This document shows positions 26,262 through 32,904 of a stretch of 32,904 bases of DNA, in pieces. This DNA comes from a virus (lineage: Duplodnaviria; Heunggongvirae; Uroviricota; Caudoviricetes). The stretch covers positions 1-32,904 of the IMG/VR virus record IMGVR_UViG_2778261269_000003; one strand, written 5' to 3'. How positions within the stretch are numbered: position 1 is the stretch's first letter; every line of letters starts with the position of its first letter. The position numbers were made by a program, and so were the translations under genes. Below the pieces are notes generated by a model. It was not told the origin of the DNA. It saw only the letters and a list, made by a program, of their open reading frames with translations, and made no database searches.

Positions 26262-28637
26262 ATGGCCACCCAACCAACAAATAACGCAGTGCCAAGCGAA
26301 TCACCCCGTGATCTGAAGTTTAACGCGGGGAAAATTGATGAGTTCGTTACGTCTGAGAATCATGATTATGTTGACAGATTTGGCAATAAACATCGTACAA
26401 TTGAAGGCATAAATTACGATTCGAACCAGGCAATTCTGAATTATGGCTATATCACGAAGGATTCTTTTGAAGATGGCAGCACCATTAGCCTTGCTAACGA
26501 GTGCTTACGCTGGAAGAGCAACGGCGAGTACTACAGATGGGATGGGTCACTCCCCAAAGTAGTTCCCCCTGGCTCTACTCCGGAAGGCACTGGTGGGCTA
26601 GGGAAAGGTAAGTGGGTTGGTGTCGGAGATGCATCTTTGCGATCGGCAATGAAGAATGAGAATGGTACTGATTTAATTAATGGAACAAAATCTGTTGTTG
26701 GGTCAGTTACAAGATCACTAACAGATATGTTGTCAGACAAGATATCCGTGCGGGATTTTGGCGGAATTGATGACTATGATGGAACAAATGCATCAACATG
26801 CACTAACAACAGAATTCCATTTCAACGGTATTTTGAATATCTTAATTCAATTGGCGGTGGCGATCTAAATATTCCACGTAAATTAACCGGGAAATATTTT
26901 ATTAGTGGTGATGACCACACACAAGTTACCTCTAAAGTTCGTTTAAATACTGACGAAGGTGTATCTATACATCTTGATTTCTCTGGAGGTGCTTCAAATA
27001 CTCCATTTGCCAATCTCGATTTAAGGGCATCGAGCCAGATAAAGATTGAGTATGTTAATTTTGGTTATCCGTCATATGTTGGTGGTAGCGTAGACACGCC
27101 ATTTAGTGACTCTTTGCAAACCATGAACAATGGTGATGGTATTTACACGGTGCCAGAAGTACTATCAGGTAGTGATTTTAAAGTCATTTCATTGGGAAAT
27201 AGCTCTGTTGAAATACCACCGTTATCAACATCCGGAGATACAATCTCTTTTAATGGCGGAGGGGTTCCAACTGCAGCAGTCATCAGCGTGACTCCTGGTG
27301 ACGAAATTATGGCGTTAATAGGCTCGAATTCGCTTGGGGGAATTATTGCCGGTGTCGTCACGGTTAATGGCTATGCTTATGTTTCTCAAGATACTTCTAG
27401 TGGTAATATTACCCTTGCAGAAGGCACGATAGGGCAGCCAAATATACTAACTGGTCTTAATTATGCTCTCATGGATCAGCTAAGAGATCGGTTTGACCGT
27501 GCTATCATAACAGTAAAAATTACTTCATCGAGAACCTTTACCGTTATGGCTAACGGTCTGGCAATATGCAGTCATACCACCAGGTCTAGTATTCTTGGCG
27601 CTTGTCTTGGTACTTCCGACATTAATAGTATTGTGAATGTATCACAAATGTCTCGAGTTAGAGGGCATAGTTTTTCCGGGTCCAAGCCTTTGAGGATATT
27701 GGTTTGCGGAGATTCAATTACCGATCAAAATAATCAATATTCATGGGCCAAATATCTCCAGATGCAGTTGGGCTCAGCTGGCGTTAACATTGCAGAGATA
27801 AATAATTTAGCAGTGGCTGGACAGACAGCGGCCCAACAACTCAGCATCCTGAAAACTGTTGGTGTAGGATATGATATCTGCCTGATACAGGTTGGTGTAA
27901 ATGATGTTCAGTTACAGACTCCGGTAGCATCCTTCATTTCGACAATAAATGAAATGGTCACTTACGCGAAGGGGATTGGAGCATTTCCGATTGTTGGTGT
28001 ACCCACGGCTTTTTATTCTCTTGCAGAGGCGAATGCTAATGGGCAAACGGGAGGGCAAAACACATCAAACAACTCTTCGATAGGGATGTACCGATCGCTT
28101 CTTATTCGTGCTGTTGCAGCAGCTGGCGGAATTGTTAACCTTGAGCCTATGAAAGGACATGGAGCTATGACGGCTAAGTGGCTGTCACTGAAACCGTATG
28201 CCGTCAGCGATAGCATCGTGCTGGACAATATTCACCCCACTCCATATGGGTCGATGCTCCTGGCACAAGGATATGCGCGATGCATTCTTGGATGGCTTAC
28301 TAGGCCTGACATGACACCAACGGAAAGCTTTGAATTTATTCCTAGCGGGTGGCTTAGCCCAGGATTTGGCGAAACATCGATCCCTAAAATTAAAGGAAGG
28401 GAGTTCTCTGGGTTGATAAGTCTGCATGCAACAAATATCAATGATGGTTCAGTGGCCTTCACTTTGCCACCATCATTTAAAGTAGATAACGTTAAGATGC
28501 TTGCGGTGACAGGGACAAACAGTTCCGGGCTTCCGGTAGGTGTTTGTAATTTATATGTTGGGACAGACGGGAAGTGTTACTTCTTTAATATTCCAGAAGG
28601 AGTTACCCAAGTATCAATGGACGGTGTGGTTTTATAG
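26262..28637 (+). CDS. Tail fibre / tailspike with embedded SGNH (GDSL) esterase domain
   Basis: 791 aa; SGNH blocks ILVCGDSITDQ (GDS at 27708-27716), IQVGVNDV, and LDNIHPT (DxxH at 28224-28235). Confidence 0.78.
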   Translation: MATQPTNNAVPSESPRDLKFNAGKIDEFVTSENHDYVDRFGNKHRTIEGINYDSNQAILNYGYITKDSFEDGSTISLANECLRWKSNGEYYRWDGSLPKVVPPGSTPEGTGGLGKGKWVGVGDASLRSAMKNENGTDLINGTKSVVGSVTRSLTDMLSDKISVRDFGGIDDYDGTNASTCTNNRIPFQRYFEYLNSIGGGDLNIPRKLTGKYFISGDDHTQVTSKVRLNTDEGVSIHLDFSGGASNTPFANLDLRASSQIKIEYVNFGYPSYVGGSVDTPFSDSLQTMNNGDGIYTVPEVLSGSDFKVISLGNSSVEIPPLSTSGDTISFNGGGVPTAAVISVTPGDEIMALIGSNSLGGIIAGVVTVNGYAYVSQDTSSGNITLAEGTIGQPNILTGLNYALMDQLRDRFDRAIITVKITSSRTFTVMANGLAICSHTTRSSILGACLGTSDINSIVNVSQMSRVRGHSFSGSKPLRILVCGDSITDQNNQYSWAKYLQMQLGSAGVNIAEINNLAVAGQTAAQQLSILKTVGVGYDICLIQVGVNDVQLQTPVASFISTINEMVTYAKGIGAFPIVGVPTAFYSLAEANANGQTGGQNTSNNSSIGMYRSLLIRAVAAAGGIVNLEPMKGHGAMTAKWLSLKPYAVSDSIVLDNIHPTPYGSMLLAQGYARCILGWLTRPDMTPTESFEFIPSGWLSPGFGETSIPKIKGREFSGLISLHATNINDGSVAFTLPPSFKVDNVKMLAVTGTNSSGLPVGVCNLYVGTDGKCYFFNIPEGVTQVSMDGVVL

Positions 28638-28641
28638 TTCC

Positions 28642-28665
28642 GTGTGGGAGGTCTCCCTCCCACAC
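28642..28665. terminator. Bidirectional hairpin between convergent fibre and acylation-cassette genes
   Basis: Perfect 10-bp GC-rich stem GTGTGGGAGG / CCTCCCACAC with 4-nt loop TCTC; weak T-tract on + side. Confidence 0.5.
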
Positions 28666-28671
28666 TCACTA

Positions 28672-29751
28672 TTAATTGTAAGGGGTTTCTCTTTCCATTT
28701 CTAAAACTATGGCTCTGAAATTTCTATTAAACTCATAACCAGGTTTATTATGTAACTCTGCATTTATGCAGTCTCCTAGAAGAGAACTTCTGATTCTAGC
28801 ACCATACCCATTGGTATGATAAGCAGAGTCCATAAATAATTTTCCTCCAAGATTAGACGCGCTTGGTGCGCAAATAACGTTAATACCAGCAACAGAAAGC
28901 AAACCCTTAAGTTTCATTAACGACTGCATGGTTTGTCCATTATCAGTGTCAAACCCCGGATTTCGCATCGTAACAGGCCATGTAATAAATAATTTCCCAC
29001 CTTTATTAGAAACAAAATTATTTATTTCCTTGAGTGTTGTATATGTATGTTCAGATATTTTAGGAATGTCTGAGTTATATGTAAATGTGCCATTATACAC
29101 AGAATCGTAAACAGTTTTACCGTCAATAAAAACATTGATGTCACCGTTTTTATTTAGACTTTTATAACTGTACCCATTATATTCACCATTGGTAGAGTTA
29201 AGATGATTGATGACATCACTCAACGGTGAAACCAGGCCTTTATCTTCAGCATTAAATCCTTCAACTAACCTTTTGGGGCTAACATTCATCATGAACTTTA
29301 TACGGTTATAAATGTTGATGCTTGATAGGTAATCCTGGCCCCACCCCAATATATTATTAACAAACCAATCAGTTGGTGCTTCCGTACGTGTGTAGTACTC
29401 ATACTCAAGCGGCATTACAACGATATCACCATTTTTAAAATGCTTTTTTAATTGATAAAAATGATAGTTTATATCTAGCTCTGCATGCGTTGCAATATTT
29501 ACAACTGGAAGTGATGTTTTATGGGAAATAATTTCACTATTTATAGAAAATAAGCTATTCGACCCGCTAGAGATTATTATTTTTTTCCCATTTATCCTGT
29601 CAGCGGCAACGCCTTTAAAATCAATTACGTTCTTTAGCCACCACTCACCTACAACCTGCTTTCCTTCCTGCATTTTGAAAGCATAAATAAACGTCCCAGC
29701 GGCAAATGCAAGTATTGCTAAGAATATAGAGAAGCTGAATTTATAATTCAC
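28672..29751 (-). CDS. DltD/AlgJ-like membrane-anchored partner protein of MBOAT acyltransferase
   Basis: 359 aa with N-terminal TM anchor, C-terminal FMDSAYHTNGYG resembling the DltD/AlgJ D..H..G.G motif; GTG start 9 nt after MBOAT stop with AAGGG RBS. Confidence 0.55.
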   Translation of the reverse strand: MNYKFSFSIFLAILAFAAGTFIYAFKMQEGKQVVGEWWLKNVIDFKGVAADRINGKKIIISSGSNSLFSINSEIISHKTSLPVVNIATHAELDINYHFYQLKKHFKNGDIVVMPLEYEYYTRTEAPTDWFVNNILGWGQDYLSSINIYNRIKFMMNVSPKRLVEGFNAEDKGLVSPLSDVINHLNSTNGEYNGYSYKSLNKNGDINVFIDGKTVYDSVYNGTFTYNSDIPKISEHTYTTLKEINNFVSNKGGKLFITWPVTMRNPGFDTDNGQTMQSLMKLKGLLSVAGINVICAPSASNLGGKLFMDSAYHTNGYGARIRSSLLGDCINAELHNKPGYEFNRNFRAIVLEMERETPYN

Positions 29752-29760
29752 TGTTCGCCC

Positions 29761-31203
29761 TTAAAAATTGAAGTAAATAAAGGATCCGGGAGCCGCCCCA
29801 CCCAAGGAAGCAGTCACTGCAATGCAAACGCCAAAGGCACACAGGCATGGAGCAAGCAGATTCCACGCTATACCACTCTTATGTTCTTTGGTCATCTCCA
29901 TGAAAACATTAGAATTTACATTAATTAAGCACGTCATAATGGCAATGGCGCAAACAGCTATCATATAGAAACCACCTTTCGATGCCTCATAGAGGAATGA
30001 GTCCGCAAAAGGTTGAGCATATTTAAATCCGGAAACCAAAGAATCGTAACCAGCAAACATTTTCTTTAGCAAACTAAAAGCATCATTTAAGTTATCTGTT
30101 CTGAAGAAAATCCAGGTGATATTCACGTAATTGAATGTTATAAACCAACCTACAACGCTCGGCATGCGAAAGCCATTTTGTGACCAATACCTGTGAATGA
30201 CAAGCCCAGCCCCGTGTAAAGCGCCCCACGCCAAAAAATTCCATCCAGCTCCATGCCAGAAACCGCCGATCAAAAACGTCAAAAACAGGTTTAGATATGT
30301 GCGTAATACACCATTTCGGTTTCCGCCAAGAGGAATGTAGACATAATTCCTGAGCCACGTGGAAAGGGTAATGTGCCAGCGTCTCCAGAAATCTTGAAGG
30401 TCTGTTGCTATGTATGGTGAATTGAAGTTGATAGGCAGCACAACGCCAAACAGAAGGGCCGAGCCAATCGCCATGTCAGTATATCCGGAGAAATCAAAGT
30501 ATAACTGGATACTGTATGAGAGGCTGGTTATCCATGCCTCCAAAGCACCAAGGGCTGAGATATTTGCATAACCTTGATCCGCTATAGAGCCAAAATATGA
30601 AGACAAGACAACTTTTTTGAATATTCCGACACTAAATATAAATACTGCGGGAACGAAATATTTCCCGAAATAATTATCCCTTGAGTTGAGTTGGTTTGTA
30701 ATTACATCATAATTTGTTATCGGGCCAGAGATGAGCTTAGGGAAAAACAAAATGTAGCAGCAATAATTTAATATTGAAATGTTAGATATCTGCTTTCTAT
30801 ACAAACTAACTGATAAAGAAATCTGCTGAAATGTATAGAAGCTTATGGCTAACGGCGCAATAACATTCATGTGGCCTATATTTAGGTTGAAAATACTAGA
30901 TATGTTACTTGCAAAGAAGTTGCAGTATTTAAAATAACCAAGAGATGCCACGTTAAATATAACTGATAATGCTACATATAATTTTGTCTTTTCAGATTTC
31001 ATCATTGTTAATATTGCGTAGTTTATCAGCATCGATATCAACAAAAGAGGCAAGAAATTAAATGTGAAAAAAGTATAGAAATACAGGCTAGCGCAACAAA
31101 TCCACACCTTGGAGAGAGCAATGTTAAATTTTTTCAGGAAAAGGAATATCAATACCACCAAAGGTAAAAACATTACAGAATATTCTAACGAGTTAAATAA
31201 CAT
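29761..31203 (-). CDS. MBOAT-family membrane-bound O-acyltransferase (AlgI/DltB/PatA-like)
   Basis: 480 aa polytopic membrane protein with the MBOAT His motif FWRRWHITLSTWLRNYVYIPLGGNR; very AT-rich. Confidence 0.8.
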   Translation of the reverse strand: MLFNSLEYSVMFLPLVVLIFLFLKKFNIALSKVWICCASLYFYTFFTFNFLPLLLISMLINYAILTMMKSEKTKLYVALSVIFNVASLGYFKYCNFFASNISSIFNLNIGHMNVIAPLAISFYTFQQISLSVSLYRKQISNISILNYCCYILFFPKLISGPITNYDVITNQLNSRDNYFGKYFVPAVFIFSVGIFKKVVLSSYFGSIADQGYANISALGALEAWITSLSYSIQLYFDFSGYTDMAIGSALLFGVVLPINFNSPYIATDLQDFWRRWHITLSTWLRNYVYIPLGGNRNGVLRTYLNLFLTFLIGGFWHGAGWNFLAWGALHGAGLVIHRYWSQNGFRMPSVVGWFITFNYVNITWIFFRTDNLNDAFSLLKKMFAGYDSLVSGFKYAQPFADSFLYEASKGGFYMIAVCAIAIMTCLINVNSNVFMEMTKEHKSGIAWNLLAPCLCAFGVCIAVTASLGGAAPGSFIYFNF

Positions 31204-31749
31204 GCCTTATCCCTTATATAAGTTATCAATCAAGTTTAAACCGCTATCAGAACACCAAATTCGCTTATCCATTCATGAACCTCTTCCACGCGCAATCTGC
31301 AACCACACTTAACATCCATGGTATTAACTTTAATTCCTAAAATTAGTGACATGGAGTTTACCACTACAGAGAAATCTGATCATTACTTGATCGAAAGAAG
31401 GGAACGTGGTGCTGTGCGTATACACAGCAATGGTCGGAGAAGCATCTCTGATCCCATATGCTCGCTCTTTGGTGGTTTGCAGAATGGAAGGCGAGTTGAG
31501 GATAAGGCGATATCGTAAATCATCAACTCCTCACCTGGAGGAATTGCAGACGGGGAGGCGTAAAAGATACCAGTGCACGATGACGGAACTAGCCCGGATG
31601 CGATCTTTGGGATGTTCACCTACATCATCCACGATGTTCGCTCTGACGAGTTCGACGACTTTCTGGTGATGTGATGGGGCATGGATGAGGAAAACATTAT
31701 CGAAAACAACCCAAAACAGATGGAGTTGAGAGGTGTCTTGCACCATTTC
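31204..31749. other. Non-coding region between conversion cassette and integrase; candidate attP and promoter of the reverse-strand cassette
   Basis: About 550 bp with only short mutually overlapping ORFs; lies at the 3' end of int as attP does in lambda; no tRNA-like T-arm seen. Confidence 0.3.
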
Positions 31750-32904
31750 TCACAACTTACCATCAAGCCAGTCTGCCCACCACTGCATCATCTCCCTGCG
31801 CTTATCCATGTACTGAGCGTGATTGTATATCCCACGCACAGATCCGCCGTTTGCATGTGCCAGTTGCACTTCAATAGCGTCAGCAGGCCATTCGTGCTCG
31901 TTCATAATCGTGCTGAATTCATGCCTGAATCCGTGACCGCTTTCCAGACCCTCATAGCCGATTTGTTTGATCACAAGCAGTACCGCGTTCTCGCAGATTG
32001 GCTTCTTCTTATCGTTGCGCCCGGCAAAAACAAACTCTGAGACTGGTTTGGTGATGGAGCTTAGCGTAGTGAGAAGTTCAACTACCTGGTCTGACATAGG
32101 AACCACATGAATTTTGCGTCCTTTCATCACACTGGCGTCGATGGTGATAATCCTATTTTCAAAATCGACGTTCTTCCATAGCATGGAACGAAGCTCTTTC
32201 GTTCTTAGGGCTGTGTAGCGTAAAACTTTGGTCGCAATGAGCGATACGATACTTCCTGAAAATGTTGCCAGTGCTTTGTTGAATGCCGGGATCTGGTCTG
32301 CAGGAAGAAACGGGAAGTTCTTCTTGCGGTATCCCTTCATGGCGTCAGCAAGGTCAGGTGCCGGGTTATATTTAGCCCTTCCGGTGACAATAGCGTAACG
32401 GAAAACCTCGCCGCATCTTCTGCGTGCTTTGTTGGCTCGTTCCATTGCACCGCGATCTTCAAACCTGCGGATTACTTCCAGCAGTTGCATCGGCTCAATA
32501 TCCTGAATTTCAAGGCCGCCAATGATAGGTAAAATGTCGTCGTCAAACATTTTGGCAAGTTCAGTTGCATACCCTACTGACCATACTTGCTTCTTGTGCT
32601 CGTACCATTCCTTGTAAATCGCACTAAAGGAATTGTTGTTAGACGAAGCCTTTTTCGCCTTTACAGGATCGATGCCAACCGAGATGTCTTTCCTCGCAGT
32701 CCATGCTTTATCCCTTGCCTCCTGCAAAGTCATAAGCGGATATTTTCCGACGGTCAGGATTTTCTCCTTACCGTCAATCTTGTAGCGAAGCTGCCATACC
32801 TTTTTCCCTGACACAGGGACATAAAGGTACAGGCCATTACCATCGAGAAGGCGGTATGGTTTTTCTTTCGGCTTTGCTGCTTCAATCTGCTTAACGGTGA
32901 GCAT
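31750..32904 (-). CDS. int: Tyrosine site-specific integrase (P4-type N-terminal arm-binding domain)
   Basis: 384 aa; start codon is the last three bases of the window; N-terminus ...KPKEKPYRLLDGNGLYLYV..., C-terminus HGFRHEFST...RGIYNHAQY with conserved His/Arg/Tyr residues. Confidence 0.9.
   Translation of the reverse strand: MLTVKQIEAAKPKEKPYRLLDGNGLYLYVPVSGKKVWQLRYKIDGKEKILTVGKYPLMTLQEARDKAWTARKDISVGIDPVKAKKASSNNNSFSAIYKEWYEHKKQVWSVGYATELAKMFDDDILPIIGGLEIQDIEPMQLLEVIRRFEDRGAMERANKARRRCGEVFRYAIVTGRAKYNPAPDLADAMKGYRKKNFPFLPADQIPAFNKALATFSGSIVSLIATKVLRYTALRTKELRSMLWKNVDFENRIITIDASVMKGRKIHVVPMSDQVVELLTTLSSITKPVSEFVFAGRNDKKKPICENAVLLVIKQIGYEGLESGHGFRHEFSTIMNEHEWPADAIEVQLAHANGGSVRGIYNHAQYMDKRREMMQWWADWLDGKL

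What the first reader, a model, noticed from the sequence alone, without database searches (positions are those of the whole stretch)
26262..31203. Possible functional coupling of a virion esterase with a prophage acyltransferase on the same surface polymer
A predicted deacylating tail fibre sits directly beside a predicted acylating conversion cassette. One hypothesis is that the lysogen modifies the receptor polymer and the fibre esterase processes it during infection, giving immunity-like exclusion or receptor specificity, as with P22 tailspike and gtr or Sf6 and oac. The MBOAT-based chemistry would be new. This is a hypothesis only.
Basis: inference. Interest (0 to 1): 0.75.

Follow-up and report, generated by a model that had tools for sequence, protein, structure and literature searches.

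The report
Phage esterase fibre beside acyltransferase cassette
An E. coli prophage carries a tail fibre that probably strips acetyl groups from a surface sugar polymer, next to a two-gene cassette that probably adds acyl groups to such a polymer; the pairing is real and conserved, but a link between the two activities is only inferred.

Summary
Window 26262-28637 (+) encodes a 791-aa side fibre made of a virion anchor, a lectin-like middle part and an SGNH esterase with intact catalytic residues. Convergent to it lie a 359-aa membrane-anchored SGNH-fold protein (28672-29751, -) and an MBOAT (29761-31203, -), followed by the IntS integrase.

The cassette sits between integrase and fibre. Sf6 oac, K-12 gtrABS and CUS-3 neuO occupy the same slot.

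The fibre-partner-MBOAT trio recurs in E. coli, Enterobacter, Ewingella, Cedecea and Yokenella. The distal fibre and the partner are exchanged as one block between conserved flanks (Mantel r=0.91, p=0.0002).

- MBOAT-based phage serotype conversion has a precedent. Pseudomonas phage JBD44 gp40-41 is reported to acetylate O-antigen and to block re-adsorption.
- The pairing is not obligatory. Related cassettes sit beside non-esterase fibres, and 81-91% identical esterase fibres occur without a cassette.

Most likely the cassette acylates the glycan that the fibre reads and so alters adsorption to lysogens. No result here shows that the esterase removes the cassette's own ester. I rate it a new variant of a known kind, of moderate interest.

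The parts
26262..26681 (+). Fibre N-terminal virion-anchor region (residues 1-140). It includes the Tail_spike_N domain (residues 65-123).
   Evidence: Pfam PF18668, E=1.2e-17. Residues 1-134 match PDB 9occ_G 'putative tail protein gp13', E=2e-47. This part is conserved (75-92%) between phages whose distal fibre differs. It is homologous to the N-terminus of the JBD44 gp39 tail spike (HMM E=8e-16).
26682..27695 (+). Fibre middle part, beta-rich and lectin-like. Variable between phages.
   Evidence: The AF2 model is mostly beta strands over model residues 59-343 (full-length 199-483). Foldseek hits galectin-like beta-sandwiches and the non-catalytic domains of two-domain CE2-type carbohydrate esterases. 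Nucleotide identity to the Enterobacter prophage falls to 50-65% here.
27696..28259 (+). Fibre SGNH/GDSL esterase domain (residues 479-666).
   Evidence: Pfam Lipase_GDSL_2 E=7.5e-13 and Lipase_GDSL E=9.4e-07. GDS 483-485, G520, N547, D655 and H658 are invariant in 28 homologues. The fold matches acetyl-xylan, CE2 and peptidoglycan O-acetyl esterases (Foldseek E=1e-7 to 1e-10).
28260..28637 (+). Fibre C-terminal beta domain.
   Evidence: AF2 strands over model residues 569-645, pLDDT about 90. It co-varies with the SGNH part.
28642..28665 (.). Perfect 10-bp GC-rich hairpin (GTGTGGGAGG-TCTC-CCTCCCACAC) between the two convergent stop codons. Likely a bidirectional terminator.
   Evidence: Read directly from the sequence. 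Sf6 has an annotated terminator in the same position between its tailspike and oac. The simple terminator scan did not report it, and no T-run follows the stem.
28672..29751 (-). Partner: a 359-aa N-terminally membrane-anchored SGNH-fold protein, the presumed extracytoplasmic acyl-transferase subunit.
29761..31203 (-). MBOAT-family membrane acyltransferase (480 aa), the presumed conduit that carries the acyl group across the membrane.
   Evidence: Pfam PF03062, E=2.7e-35. DltB structures 8jem and 6bug match at E=4e-30. It is 50% identical to JBD44 gp41. H317 (FWHG) and the RRWHITLS/IPLGGNR motifs are present. GC content is 36-39% against 53-57% for the tail genes.
31204..31749 (-). Non-coding region upstream of the cassette, presumed to hold its promoter and regulatory elements.
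   Evidence: It contains no tRNA and no Pfam-matching small ORF. No sigma-70 consensus site was reported here. It has four GATC sites, and the pair at -189/-178 is also present in three related loci. Its function is inferred only.
31750..32904 (-). IntS-type tyrosine integrase, marking the argW-proximal end of the prophage.
   Evidence: Pfam Phage_integrase, Phage_int_M and Arm-DNA-bind_3. It is 96-99% identical to the integrases of K-12 intS, Sf6, HK620 and CUS-3. The same prophage in GCA_052766365.1 is followed by yfdC-, mlaA- and fadL-type genes, as at K-12 argW.

Best explanation
The MBOAT and its membrane-anchored SGNH-fold partner form a lysogenic-conversion cassette that the prophage expresses.

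Proposed steps:
1. The MBOAT passes an acyl group, most likely acetyl from a cytoplasmic donor, across the inner membrane.
2. The partner transfers it onto a surface glycan while that glycan is in the periplasm. O-antigen is the most likely target, capsule or ECA less so.
3. The target is the same glycan that the neighbouring side fibre binds and de-O-acetylates on naive hosts through its lectin-like and SGNH esterase domains.
4. The extra or repositioned ester on lysogens alters fibre recognition, so lysogens adsorb fewer phages. This gives superinfection exclusion and protects the prophage's own progeny.

Shown here: the domain identities, the position in the int-fibre slot, the conservation of the trio, and the block co-inheritance of distal fibre and partner.

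Inferred: the donor, the acceptor glycan, expression in the lysogen, and the effect on adsorption.
For: 1. The slot is the canonical one for modifiers of the receptor glycan. Sf6 has tailspike-terminator-oac-int, K-12 has tail fibre genes-gtrS/B/A-intS-argW, and CUS-3 has int-neuO-endosialidase.
2. JBD44 is the closest characterised system. Its MBOAT is 50% identical. Its convergent tail spike gp39 shares the fibre's N-terminal anchor. A preprint states that gp40-41 acetylate O-antigen and reports about 10^4-fold fewer free phage when they are deleted.
3. The MBOAT-partner pair is a widespread module. In other bacteria it lies among glycosyltransferase, EpsG and cytidylyltransferase genes, which points to a polysaccharide substrate.
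4. The partner has an SGNH/DltD-like fold with an invariant Ser and His and an N-terminal membrane anchor. This matches the known logic of MBOAT plus an extracytoplasmic SGNH transferase (PMC9558356).
5. The fibre has a complete SGNH catalytic set and a carbohydrate-esterase fold.
6. The distal fibre and the partner co-vary (Mantel r=0.91, p=0.0002), while the MBOAT does not (r=0.46, p=0.06). Identity profiles show distal fibre plus partner exchanged as one block between a conserved fibre N-terminus and a conserved MBOAT. This fits the idea that these are the two glycan-specific components.
7. For esterase-type receptor-binding proteins, the acetyl group is itself the receptor determinant. Non-acetylated mutants resist phage G7C (PMC10743462). 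Changing the ester pattern is therefore a plausible way to change adsorption.
Against: - No experiment or chemistry is available for this cassette or this fibre.
- The acceptor polymer is unknown, and the host's O-antigen type was not examined.
- Esterase fibres 81-91% identical occur without any cassette. Related cassettes sit beside non-esterase fibres. Each part therefore works without the other.
- SGNH fibres are among the most common enzymatic receptor-binding proteins in temperate Klebsiella phages (PMC13123978). Co-occurrence could be partly chance, and I did not compute a background-corrected enrichment.
- Block inheritance of adjacent genes is also expected from linkage alone.
- No promoter was detected upstream of the MBOAT.
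- The cassette is often broken in relatives, by IS1 and by a 5-bp frameshift.
Confidence: 0.45

Rival explanations
1. Matched writer and eraser. The fibre esterase hydrolyses exactly the ester that the cassette installs. The cassette would be a 'lock' that shields lysogens and remnant-carrying cells from other phages. The linked esterase would be the 'key', or a receptor-destroying enzyme, that lets this phage penetrate or detach from acylated glycan.
For: The two chemistries are opposite and sit side by side. The distal fibre and the partner are inherited as one block. Esterase-type fibres need the acetylated glycan as substrate (G7C). In Yokenella, the gene next to the MBOAT and partner encodes a full homologue of the distal fibre (HMM E=9e-110). 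Its virion anchor is replaced by a Tat-like lipoprotein signal, MAISRRILLKLAAPLALLTAAC. That makes it an exported esterase kept beside the cassette, reminiscent of PatA/PatB/Ape. Cassette-bearing remnants without a full prophage exist and would be infectable targets.
Against: If lysogens displayed the fibre's own substrate, they would adsorb their own progeny. This is the opposite of what the JBD44 cassette is reported to achieve. Near-identical fibres occur in prophages and genomes with no cassette, so their substrate ester must be made by something else. The Yokenella case is a single locus, and its signal peptide was read by eye.
Confidence: 0.22
2. No functional coupling. The cassette is a generic cargo gene set inserted at the usual cargo site between int and the last tail gene. 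It modifies a polymer unrelated to the fibre's receptor, and the esterase fibre is simply the tail gene that happens to lie there.
For: The cassette is found beside at least four other kinds of receptor-binding protein. The fibre is found without the cassette. SGNH fibres are common in temperate enterobacterial phages. The low GC of the cassette marks it as a foreign insertion. Adjacent genes co-inherit by linkage.
Against: The characterised cargoes compared here (Sf6 oac, CUS-3 neuO, JBD44 gp40-41; P22 gtr from general knowledge) modify the glycan read by the adjacent receptor-binding protein. Recombination boundaries in two independent comparisons fall at the fibre N-domain junction and at or inside the MBOAT. 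They do not fall between fibre and partner, although only 34 bp separates those two genes, against 9 bp between partner and MBOAT.
Confidence: 0.22
3. Peptidoglycan O-acetylation system of the PatA/PatB/Ape type. The cassette would O-acetylate murein, for example to resist the lysozymes of incoming phages, and the SGNH protein would be the matching O-acetyl-peptidoglycan esterase.
For: The gene content resembles the OAP cluster: an MBOAT, an SGNH transferase and an SGNH esterase. PatB and Ape1 appear among the structural matches.
Against: The esterase is a virion fibre with a tail-anchor domain, located outside the outer membrane. The partner is membrane-anchored and resembles DltD more than PatB, with no sequence similarity to PatB. 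The nearest characterised MBOAT relative acts on O-antigen. Chromosomal relatives lie in polysaccharide loci.
Confidence: 0.03

Closest known systems
Pseudomonas phage JBD44 gp39-gp40-gp41 (tail spike plus a two-gene O-antigen acetylation, 'anti-Kronos' system)
   Same: [quoted passage not shown] The MBOATs are 50% identical. The spike and the window fibre share the N-terminal anchor. A preprint states that the cassette acetylates O-antigen and reports that deleting it greatly lowers free-phage titre, attributed to re-adsorption by lysogens.
   Different: The JBD44 partner is AlgX/DHHW-like (Pfam ALGX, E=7e-13). It is unrelated in sequence to the window partner (BLASTP and hhalign negative). 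No SGNH domain was detected in the JBD44 spike. In JBD44 the neighbour on the other side is the endolysin gene, not int. The host is Pseudomonas.
Sf6 tailspike/oac, P22 tailspike/gtrABC, K-12 CPS-53 gtrABS and CUS-3 endosialidase/neuO
   Same: Sf6, K-12 CPS-53 and CUS-3 have the same IntS integrase and the same slot between int and the receptor-binding protein. Sf6 also has the same convergent orientation with an intervening terminator. In these systems the cargo modifies the glycan that the adjacent protein recognises. P22 is cited from general knowledge only.
   Different: Those cargoes are an AT3 acetyltransferase (oac), the Gtr glucosylation trio, or a cytoplasmic hexapeptide-type acetyltransferase (NeuO). 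None is an MBOAT with a partner. Their receptor-binding proteins are glycosidases, not esterases.
Esterase receptor-binding proteins: G7C gp63.1, Pectobacterium PP99 tail spike, Klebsiella prophage SGNH fibres
   Same: A Tail_spike_N anchor followed by an SGNH esterase. G7C gp63.1 (4qnl) matches the window fibre in the anchor region. These proteins deacetylate O-antigen or capsule without depolymerising it, and the acetyl group is required for infection.
   Different: Sequence similarity to gp63.1 is confined to the anchor. The SGNH part is not detectably similar by phmmer. None of the papers read here mentions an adjacent acyltransferase cassette.
Bacterial MBOAT plus SGNH-partner systems: DltB/DltD, PatA/PatB(/Ape), AlgI/AlgJ/AlgX, WssH/WssI
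   Different: The window has no DltA/DltC-type ligase or carrier gene, although a Microbulbifer relative does have one upstream. The partner has no sequence match to any of these partner families. The cassette is carried by a phage and sits next to a fibre.

Membership tests
MBOAT superfamily (PF03062) | Pfam model match above the gathering score. | tested here: met
   122.7 bits against a cutoff of 27, E=2.7e-35, residues 40-362.
MBOAT superfamily (PF03062) | Conserved catalytic histidine in a W-H-G context, plus the R-W-H and P-L-G-G motifs. | tested here: met
   FWHGAGW starts at residue 315 (H317), RRWHITLS at 274 and IPLGGNR at 290.
DltB (D-alanyl-lipoteichoic acid, TIGR04091 equivalog) | Score above the equivalog cutoff, and an accompanying DltA/DltC donor system. 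| tested here: not met
   168.9 bits against a cutoff of 375. No ligase or carrier gene lies between the fibre and int.
SGNH/GDSL hydrolase (fibre) | The conserved blocks GDS, G, GxND and DxxH with the catalytic Ser, Gly, Asn and His. | tested here: met
   GDS 483-485, G520, N547, D655 and H658 are invariant in 28 homologues. Pfam PF13472 scores 49.8 bits against a cutoff of 32.9. The fold match agrees.
SGNH/GDSL hydrolase (fibre) | Measured esterase activity on an O-acetylated glycan. | not testable with these tools
   This needs purified protein with pNP-acetate and polysaccharide NMR.
SGNH-fold acyltransferase partners (DltD / PatB / AlgX-AlgJ) | SGNH-like alpha/beta/alpha fold with a nucleophilic Ser and a His. 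| tested here: met
SGNH-fold acyltransferase partners (DltD / PatB / AlgX-AlgJ) | Sequence-level membership of the DltD, ALGX or DHHW Pfam families. | tested here: not met
   There is no Pfam hit at E<=0.01 and no PDB sequence hit with the family profile. hhalign to the AlgX-like JBD44 gp40 gives probability 0.4%. This is a separate family with no curated model.
SGNH-fold acyltransferase partners (DltD / PatB / AlgX-AlgJ) | Gene immediately adjacent to an MBOAT gene. | tested here: met
   The MBOAT gene lies directly upstream of the partner in the large majority of the ~100 loci scanned, across many phyla.
Prophage serotype-conversion cargo in the IntS int-to-fibre slot | Location between the IntS integrase and the receptor-binding protein gene, transcribed opposite to the tail genes. 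| tested here: met
   The window gene order matches Sf6, K-12 CPS-53 and CUS-3. The same prophage lies at argW in L107.
Prophage serotype-conversion cargo in the IntS int-to-fibre slot | Changes the chemical structure or serotype of a surface glycan in lysogens. | not testable with these tools
   This needs LPS or capsule chemistry on a lysogen and on a cassette-deletion lysogen.
JBD44-type two-gene MBOAT O-antigen acetylation / self-exclusion system | An MBOAT homologous to gp41, plus a downstream extracytoplasmic partner, convergent with the tail spike. | tested here: met
   The MBOATs are 50% identical. The architecture is the same. The spike N-terminus is homologous to the window fibre.
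JBD44-type two-gene MBOAT O-antigen acetylation / self-exclusion system | A partner homologous to gp40 (AlgX-like). | tested here: not met
   BLASTP E=4.1 and hhalign probability 0.4%.
JBD44-type two-gene MBOAT O-antigen acetylation / self-exclusion system | Deletion lowers free-phage titre through re-adsorption. | not testable with these tools
   This is a phage-titre experiment.
PatA/PatB/Ape peptidoglycan O-acetylation cluster | A soluble periplasmic PatB and a periplasmic Ape esterase acting on MurNAc. | tested here: inconclusive
   The resemblance is at fold level only. The esterase carries a virion anchor rather than a signal peptide, except in the Yokenella homologue. The substrate cannot be tested.

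The most novel reading that the evidence does not exclude
The distal fibre (lectin plus esterase) and the partner transferase are a matched eraser/writer pair for one ester on one surface glycan. They would be swapped between phages as a single specificity block, flanked by a conserved fibre anchor and a conserved MBOAT. In Yokenella the same pair appears to have been taken over by the cell as an exported lipoprotein esterase beside the cassette. That would make a surface-glycan counterpart of PatA/PatB/Ape that originated on, or moves through, phage tail fibres.
Probability: 0.2. Interest if true: 0.8.

Novelty: new variant of a known kind. Interest (0 to 1): 0.55.

Why it matters
If the cassette acylates the fibre's receptor glycan, it adds a third chemistry to enterobacterial serotype conversion, beside AT3 acetylases and Gtr glucosylation. 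That chemistry is an MBOAT with a previously uncurated SGNH-fold partner family, which has about 4,800 50%-identity clusters and is almost always found next to an MBOAT gene.

It would also give an easily testable system in which a phage carries both an ester-adding and an ester-removing enzyme for a surface polymer. This bears on three questions:
- how esterase-type fibres, now known to be common in temperate phages, choose hosts;
- how lysogens avoid re-adsorbing their own progeny;
- whether O-acetyl patterns missed by O- and K-locus typing are set by prophages.

The block structure (conserved anchor, variable distal fibre plus partner, conserved MBOAT) suggests a simple rule for predicting matched fibre/modifier specificities from sequence.

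Tried and rejected
- attP between cassette and int. ARAGORN finds no tRNA or tRNA fragment in the window. In Sf6 the attP core lies beyond int, and in K-12 argW lies beyond intS. The 546-bp gap is therefore upstream regulatory DNA, not attP.
- Promoter and terminator scan of 28500-31900. The counts equal the shuffled expectation and no site falls in the upstream gap. The hairpin between the convergent genes was found only by reading the sequence.
- Dam/OxyR-type phase variation, as in gtr. There are four GATC sites in the gap, and the -189/-178 pair is also present in three related loci. More distant cassettes lack them. Not established.
- Slipped-strand phase variation. The CAACT x2 against x1 frameshift in a close relative involves only two repeat units. 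I treat it as a loss-of-function mutation.
- Sequence links from the partner to DltD, PatB or AlgX. Pfam, NCBIfam, PDB phmmer, PDB profile search and hhalign against JBD44 gp40 were all negative. Only fold comparison places the protein.
- PHROGs and PADLOC. Neither has a family for the MBOAT or the partner. tblastn of the partner against 50,697 phage genomes found nothing.
- The source of the JBD44 O10 statement (reference 46 of the preprint) could not be retrieved.
- Retention of the fibre in 'three-gene islands' as evidence for a cellular role. The Cedecea and E. coli YZ22MPE6 copies are 5'-truncated remnants, so decay explains them. Only the Yokenella copy has a new export signal.

Full report
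**What is in the window**

The window is most of a lambdoid siphovirus prophage of E. coli. Its left part resembles the replication, nin and Q regions of HK140 and lambda. Its structural genes resemble those of temperate Enterobacter and Klebsiella phages.

After the tape-measure and distal tail genes come four genes:
- a 791-aa fibre (26262-28637, +);
- a 359-aa protein (28672-29751, -);
- a 480-aa MBOAT (29761-31203, -);
- an integrase (31750-32904, -).

The fibre protein is 100% identical to an E. coli protein in public assemblies (P0148). In one of those genomes the same prophage is followed by yfdC-, mlaA- and fadL-type genes. That is the K-12 argW/intS neighbourhood. The integrase is 96-99% identical to the integrases of K-12 intS, Sf6, HK620 and CUS-3. 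GC content falls from 53-57% in the tail genes to 36-39% in the cassette, which marks the cassette as acquired cargo.

**Checking the observation**

Both domain calls hold.

*Fibre.* It has a Tail_spike_N anchor (E=1.2e-17) and a GDSL/SGNH domain (E=7.5e-13). Residues 1-134 match a solved siphophage tail protein, 9occ_G. The anchor matches the CBA120 and G7C spikes. In an alignment of 28 homologues, GDS 483-485, G520, N547, D655 and H658 are invariant. An AlphaFold model of residues 141-791 (pLDDT 81) matches two-domain carbohydrate esterases: CE2 enzymes, acetyl-xylan esterases, YxiM and Ape1. It also matches a galectin-like sandwich.

*MBOAT.* It scores 122.7 bits on PF03062 and carries the WHG histidine. 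Among solved structures it is closest to DltB.

**The cassette as a module**

A profile of the partner finds 4,787 50%-identity cluster representatives. None of ten sampled members has a significant Pfam match. Nine viral and 80 genomic loci were fetched with the partner profile. In nearly all of them an MBOAT gene lies directly upstream of the partner, across Campylobacterota, Desulfobacterota, Gammaproteobacteria, Bacteroidota and Cyanobacteria.

Chromosomal neighbours include GT1/GT4 glycosyltransferases, EpsG, a cytidylyltransferase and a methyltransferase. In a Microbulbifer genome the upstream gene encodes an adenylation-carrier-thioesterase protein, a Dlt-like arrangement. The pair is therefore a widespread, uncurated module of MBOAT plus extracytoplasmic SGNH transferase that acts on polysaccharides. 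This follows the same logic as DltB/DltD, PatA/PatB and AlgI/AlgJ-AlgX (review PMC9558356). The window has no carrier or ligase gene, so a host donor is the default inference, most simply acetyl-CoA.

**The slot**

Sf6 has tailspike (+), terminator, oac (-), int (-), then attP. K-12 CPS-53 has tail-fibre genes, gtrS/B/A (-), intS (-), then argW. CUS-3 has attL, int, neuO and the endosialidase tailspike. The window has the same order and orientation. It even has a perfect 10-bp hairpin in the 34-bp gap between the convergent stop codons (28642-28665).

In the characterised systems of this kind, the cargo modifies the glycan that the neighbouring receptor-binding protein reads. The MBOAT-partner pair is thus a fourth kind of cargo in a well-known slot.

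**A precedent for MBOAT chemistry in phages**

tblastn of the MBOAT against 50,697 phage genomes finds Pseudomonas phages JBD44, JBD88b, JBD94b, DO4 and LC3I3 at 46-50% identity. JBD44 has gp41 (MBOAT), then gp40, convergent with the gp39 tail spike. gp40 is AlgX/DHHW-like.

Taylor et al. (bioRxiv 10.1101/2024.03.05.583538) state that these two genes acetylate O-antigen and confer serotype O10. Deleting them lowered spontaneous free-phage titre about 10^4-fold, which the authors attribute to re-adsorption of progeny by lysogens.

The first 93 residues of gp39 match the N-terminal anchor of the window fibre family (E=8e-16). The claim that the MBOAT chemistry would be new is therefore not correct in general. 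Three things are new here: the enterobacterial setting, a partner family unrelated in sequence to gp40, and an esterase as the neighbouring fibre. I found no paper in the searchable library that describes this enterobacterial cassette.

The convergent trio of MBOAT, partner and GDSL fibre was found at these loci:

| Source | Loci | Note |
|---|---|---|
| Enterobacter hormaechei prophage end | L003-L006 | |
| E. coli | L007/L008, L014 | |
| E. coli YZ22MPE6 and LF4-1 | L001 (LF4-1 not fetched) | IS1-flanked remnant (L001) |
| Ewingella | L012 | |
| Cedecea | L009/L010 | fibre 5'-truncated |
| Yokenella | L011 | |
| Viral contigs | L013, L015, L016 | |
| Metagenomic contigs | L110, L112/L113 | |

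The cassette is rare. It occurs in 2 of 5,426 complete E. coli genomes. The partner search returned 27 clusters at 90% identity among 5.8 billion, of which about ten form the enterobacterial group.

There are exceptions in both directions.

Cassettes next to other kinds of fibre:
- a Mu-like fibre with its assembly protein (L111, partner 50% identical);
- a P22-type Head_binding plus pectate-lyase tailspike (L114/L115);
- a Tail_spike_N fibre without GDSL (L017);
- myovirus fibres (L018, L019) and another P22-type spike (L021).

Esterase fibres without a cassette:
- L116/L104, with 91% identity in the SGNH part; in L116 the fibre gene is followed directly by holE- and glnS-type host genes;
- L002 and L105, with 81-82% identity on P22-type scaffolds.

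The strain carrying L002 has no cassette anywhere in its genome. SGNH fibres are also reported as among the most prevalent enzymatic receptor-binding proteins of temperate Klebsiella phages (PMC13123978). Raw co-occurrence is therefore weak evidence for esterase-specific coupling.

**Co-inheritance**

This is the stronger signal. Across nine trios, partner identity tracks fibre-esterase identity (Mantel Spearman r=0.91, p=0.0002). MBOAT identity tracks neither (r=0.46, p=0.06; r=0.34, p=0.12). Two identity profiles show why.

| Comparison | Conserved parts | Diverged parts |
|---|---|---|
| Window vs Enterobacter prophage (L003) | tail genes, fibre anchor 79-92%; MBOAT 81-91%; first 300 bp upstream 77-85% | distal fibre and partner 50-69% |
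| Window vs second E. coli element (L007) | 26500-30500 (distal fibre, partner, 3' two-thirds of MBOAT) 89-99% | flanks 41-69% |

The distal fibre and the partner therefore move as one block between a conserved anchor and a conserved MBOAT. JBD44 fits the same picture at greater distance. Its anchor and MBOAT are conserved, while its spike body and partner are entirely different. This is what is expected if the partner and the distal fibre are the two glycan-specific parts. Linkage of adjacent genes contributes to the signal too. Even so, the boundaries avoid the 34-bp gap between fibre and partner, while using the equally short partner-MBOAT junction or the MBOAT itself.

**Direction of the coupling**

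For esterase fibres the acetyl group is the receptor determinant. Mutants lacking O-unit acetylation are completely resistant to G7C (PMC10743462). If the cassette made the fibre's own substrate, lysogens would soak up their own progeny. That is the opposite of the JBD44 result. Near-identical fibres also work in cassette-free backgrounds.

I therefore favour masking: the cassette adds a different or additional ester to the same glycan and so reduces recognition. I give this 0.45.

The writer/eraser alternative (0.22) is kept alive by the block co-inheritance and by one striking locus. In Yokenella the gene next to the cassette encodes a full homologue of the distal fibre (E=9e-110). Its virion anchor is replaced by MAISRRILLKLAAPLALLTAAC, which reads as a Tat-type lipoprotein signal. 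That would be an exported esterase kept beside the acyltransferase, as Ape is beside PatA/PatB.

Pure positional coincidence gets 0.22. A peptidoglycan-acetylation reading gets 0.03.

**Decay**

The module is often damaged:
- IS1 lies between the partner and the MBOAT in the otherwise identical prophage (L107).
- IS1 truncates the partner and removes the MBOAT in Citrobacter (L117).
- IS1 clips the fibre in E. coli YZ22MPE6.
- A 5-bp CAACT deletion frameshifts the MBOAT in a close relative (95.7% nucleotide identity across the compared 6.9-kb region).

This points to fluctuating or negative selection on the cassette.

**Verdict**

This is a new variant of a known kind: prophage serotype-conversion cargo next to the receptor-binding protein. 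Three features are unusual: an uncurated partner family, an esterase fibre as neighbour, and block co-inheritance of the two glycan-facing parts. All functional statements remain inference, and the experiments needed to settle them are simple. Interest: 0.55.

Noticed in passing
window 28642-28665: A perfect 10-bp GC-rich hairpin (GTGTGGGAGG-TCTC-CCTCCCACAC) fills most of the 34-bp gap between the convergent fibre and partner stop codons. It is a likely bidirectional terminator. The consensus scan did not report it, and no T-run follows the stem.
   Followed up: partly
window 30679-30695 (- strand); L013/L102: The MBOAT gene contains CAACT twice in tandem at about codon 170. A close relative on an IMG/VR contig has one copy, which frameshifts the gene. 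This is either a plain inactivating mutation or minimal slippage.
   Followed up: partly
L107:13525-14222; L117:10324-11021; L001:11183-11880: IS1 has hit the three-gene module independently three times. It lies between the partner and the MBOAT in the same prophage at argW. It truncates the partner and removes the MBOAT in Citrobacter freundii. It clips the fibre N-terminus in E. coli YZ22MPE6.
   Followed up: partly
L011:12567-14735 (-), Yokenella regensburgei: A 722-aa homologue of the distal fibre (mid, SGNH and C-terminal parts) has its virion anchor replaced by a Tat-like lipoprotein signal (MAISRRILLKLAAPLALLTAAC). It sits convergent to an MBOAT-partner pair. An AT3 acyltransferase gene lies 1.3 kb upstream and IS66 is nearby. 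It looks like a fibre part taken over as an exported esterase.
   Followed up: partly
L042:5596-8292, Microbulbifer harenosus: A single protein with AMP-binding, carrier (PP-binding) and thioesterase domains lies directly upstream of an MBOAT-partner pair. This Dlt-like layout suggests that some family members transfer a carrier-bound acyl or aminoacyl group rather than acetyl.
   Followed up: no
window 31378-31392, 31450-31453, 31602-31605: There are four GATC sites in the 546-bp region upstream of the MBOAT. The closely spaced pair at -189/-178 is also present in three related loci (L003, L013, L015) but absent from more distant cassettes. Dam-dependent phase variation, as in gtr operons, is possible but not shown.
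   Followed up: partly
L029:8767-11086, Oleiphilus MAG: Two partner paralogues lie in tandem downstream of one MBOAT gene.
   Followed up: no
P0013, P0018, P0019, P0020, P0025 (alignment A1, columns ~430-544): Some partner homologues from Arcobacter and relatives carry a conserved C-terminal extension of about 120 residues (…GKDYKLIAHSPEDC…AYGFWT…) that the phage and enterobacterial versions lack. Its function is unknown.
   Followed up: no
L009, L012, L001 (Cedecea, Ewingella, E. coli YZ22MPE6): The fibre-partner-MBOAT trio survives as a small island among ordinary chromosomal genes with no other annotated phage gene nearby. The Cedecea and E. coli fibre copies are 5'-truncated, so these look like prophage remnants in which the cassette end was retained.
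   Followed up: partly
window 1-25000: The prophage backbone is mosaic. The replication, nin and Q region is 93-95% identical to HK140, E212 and lambda-type phages. The head and tail genes are about 85-87% identical to temperate Enterobacter and Klebsiella siphophages.
   Followed up: no
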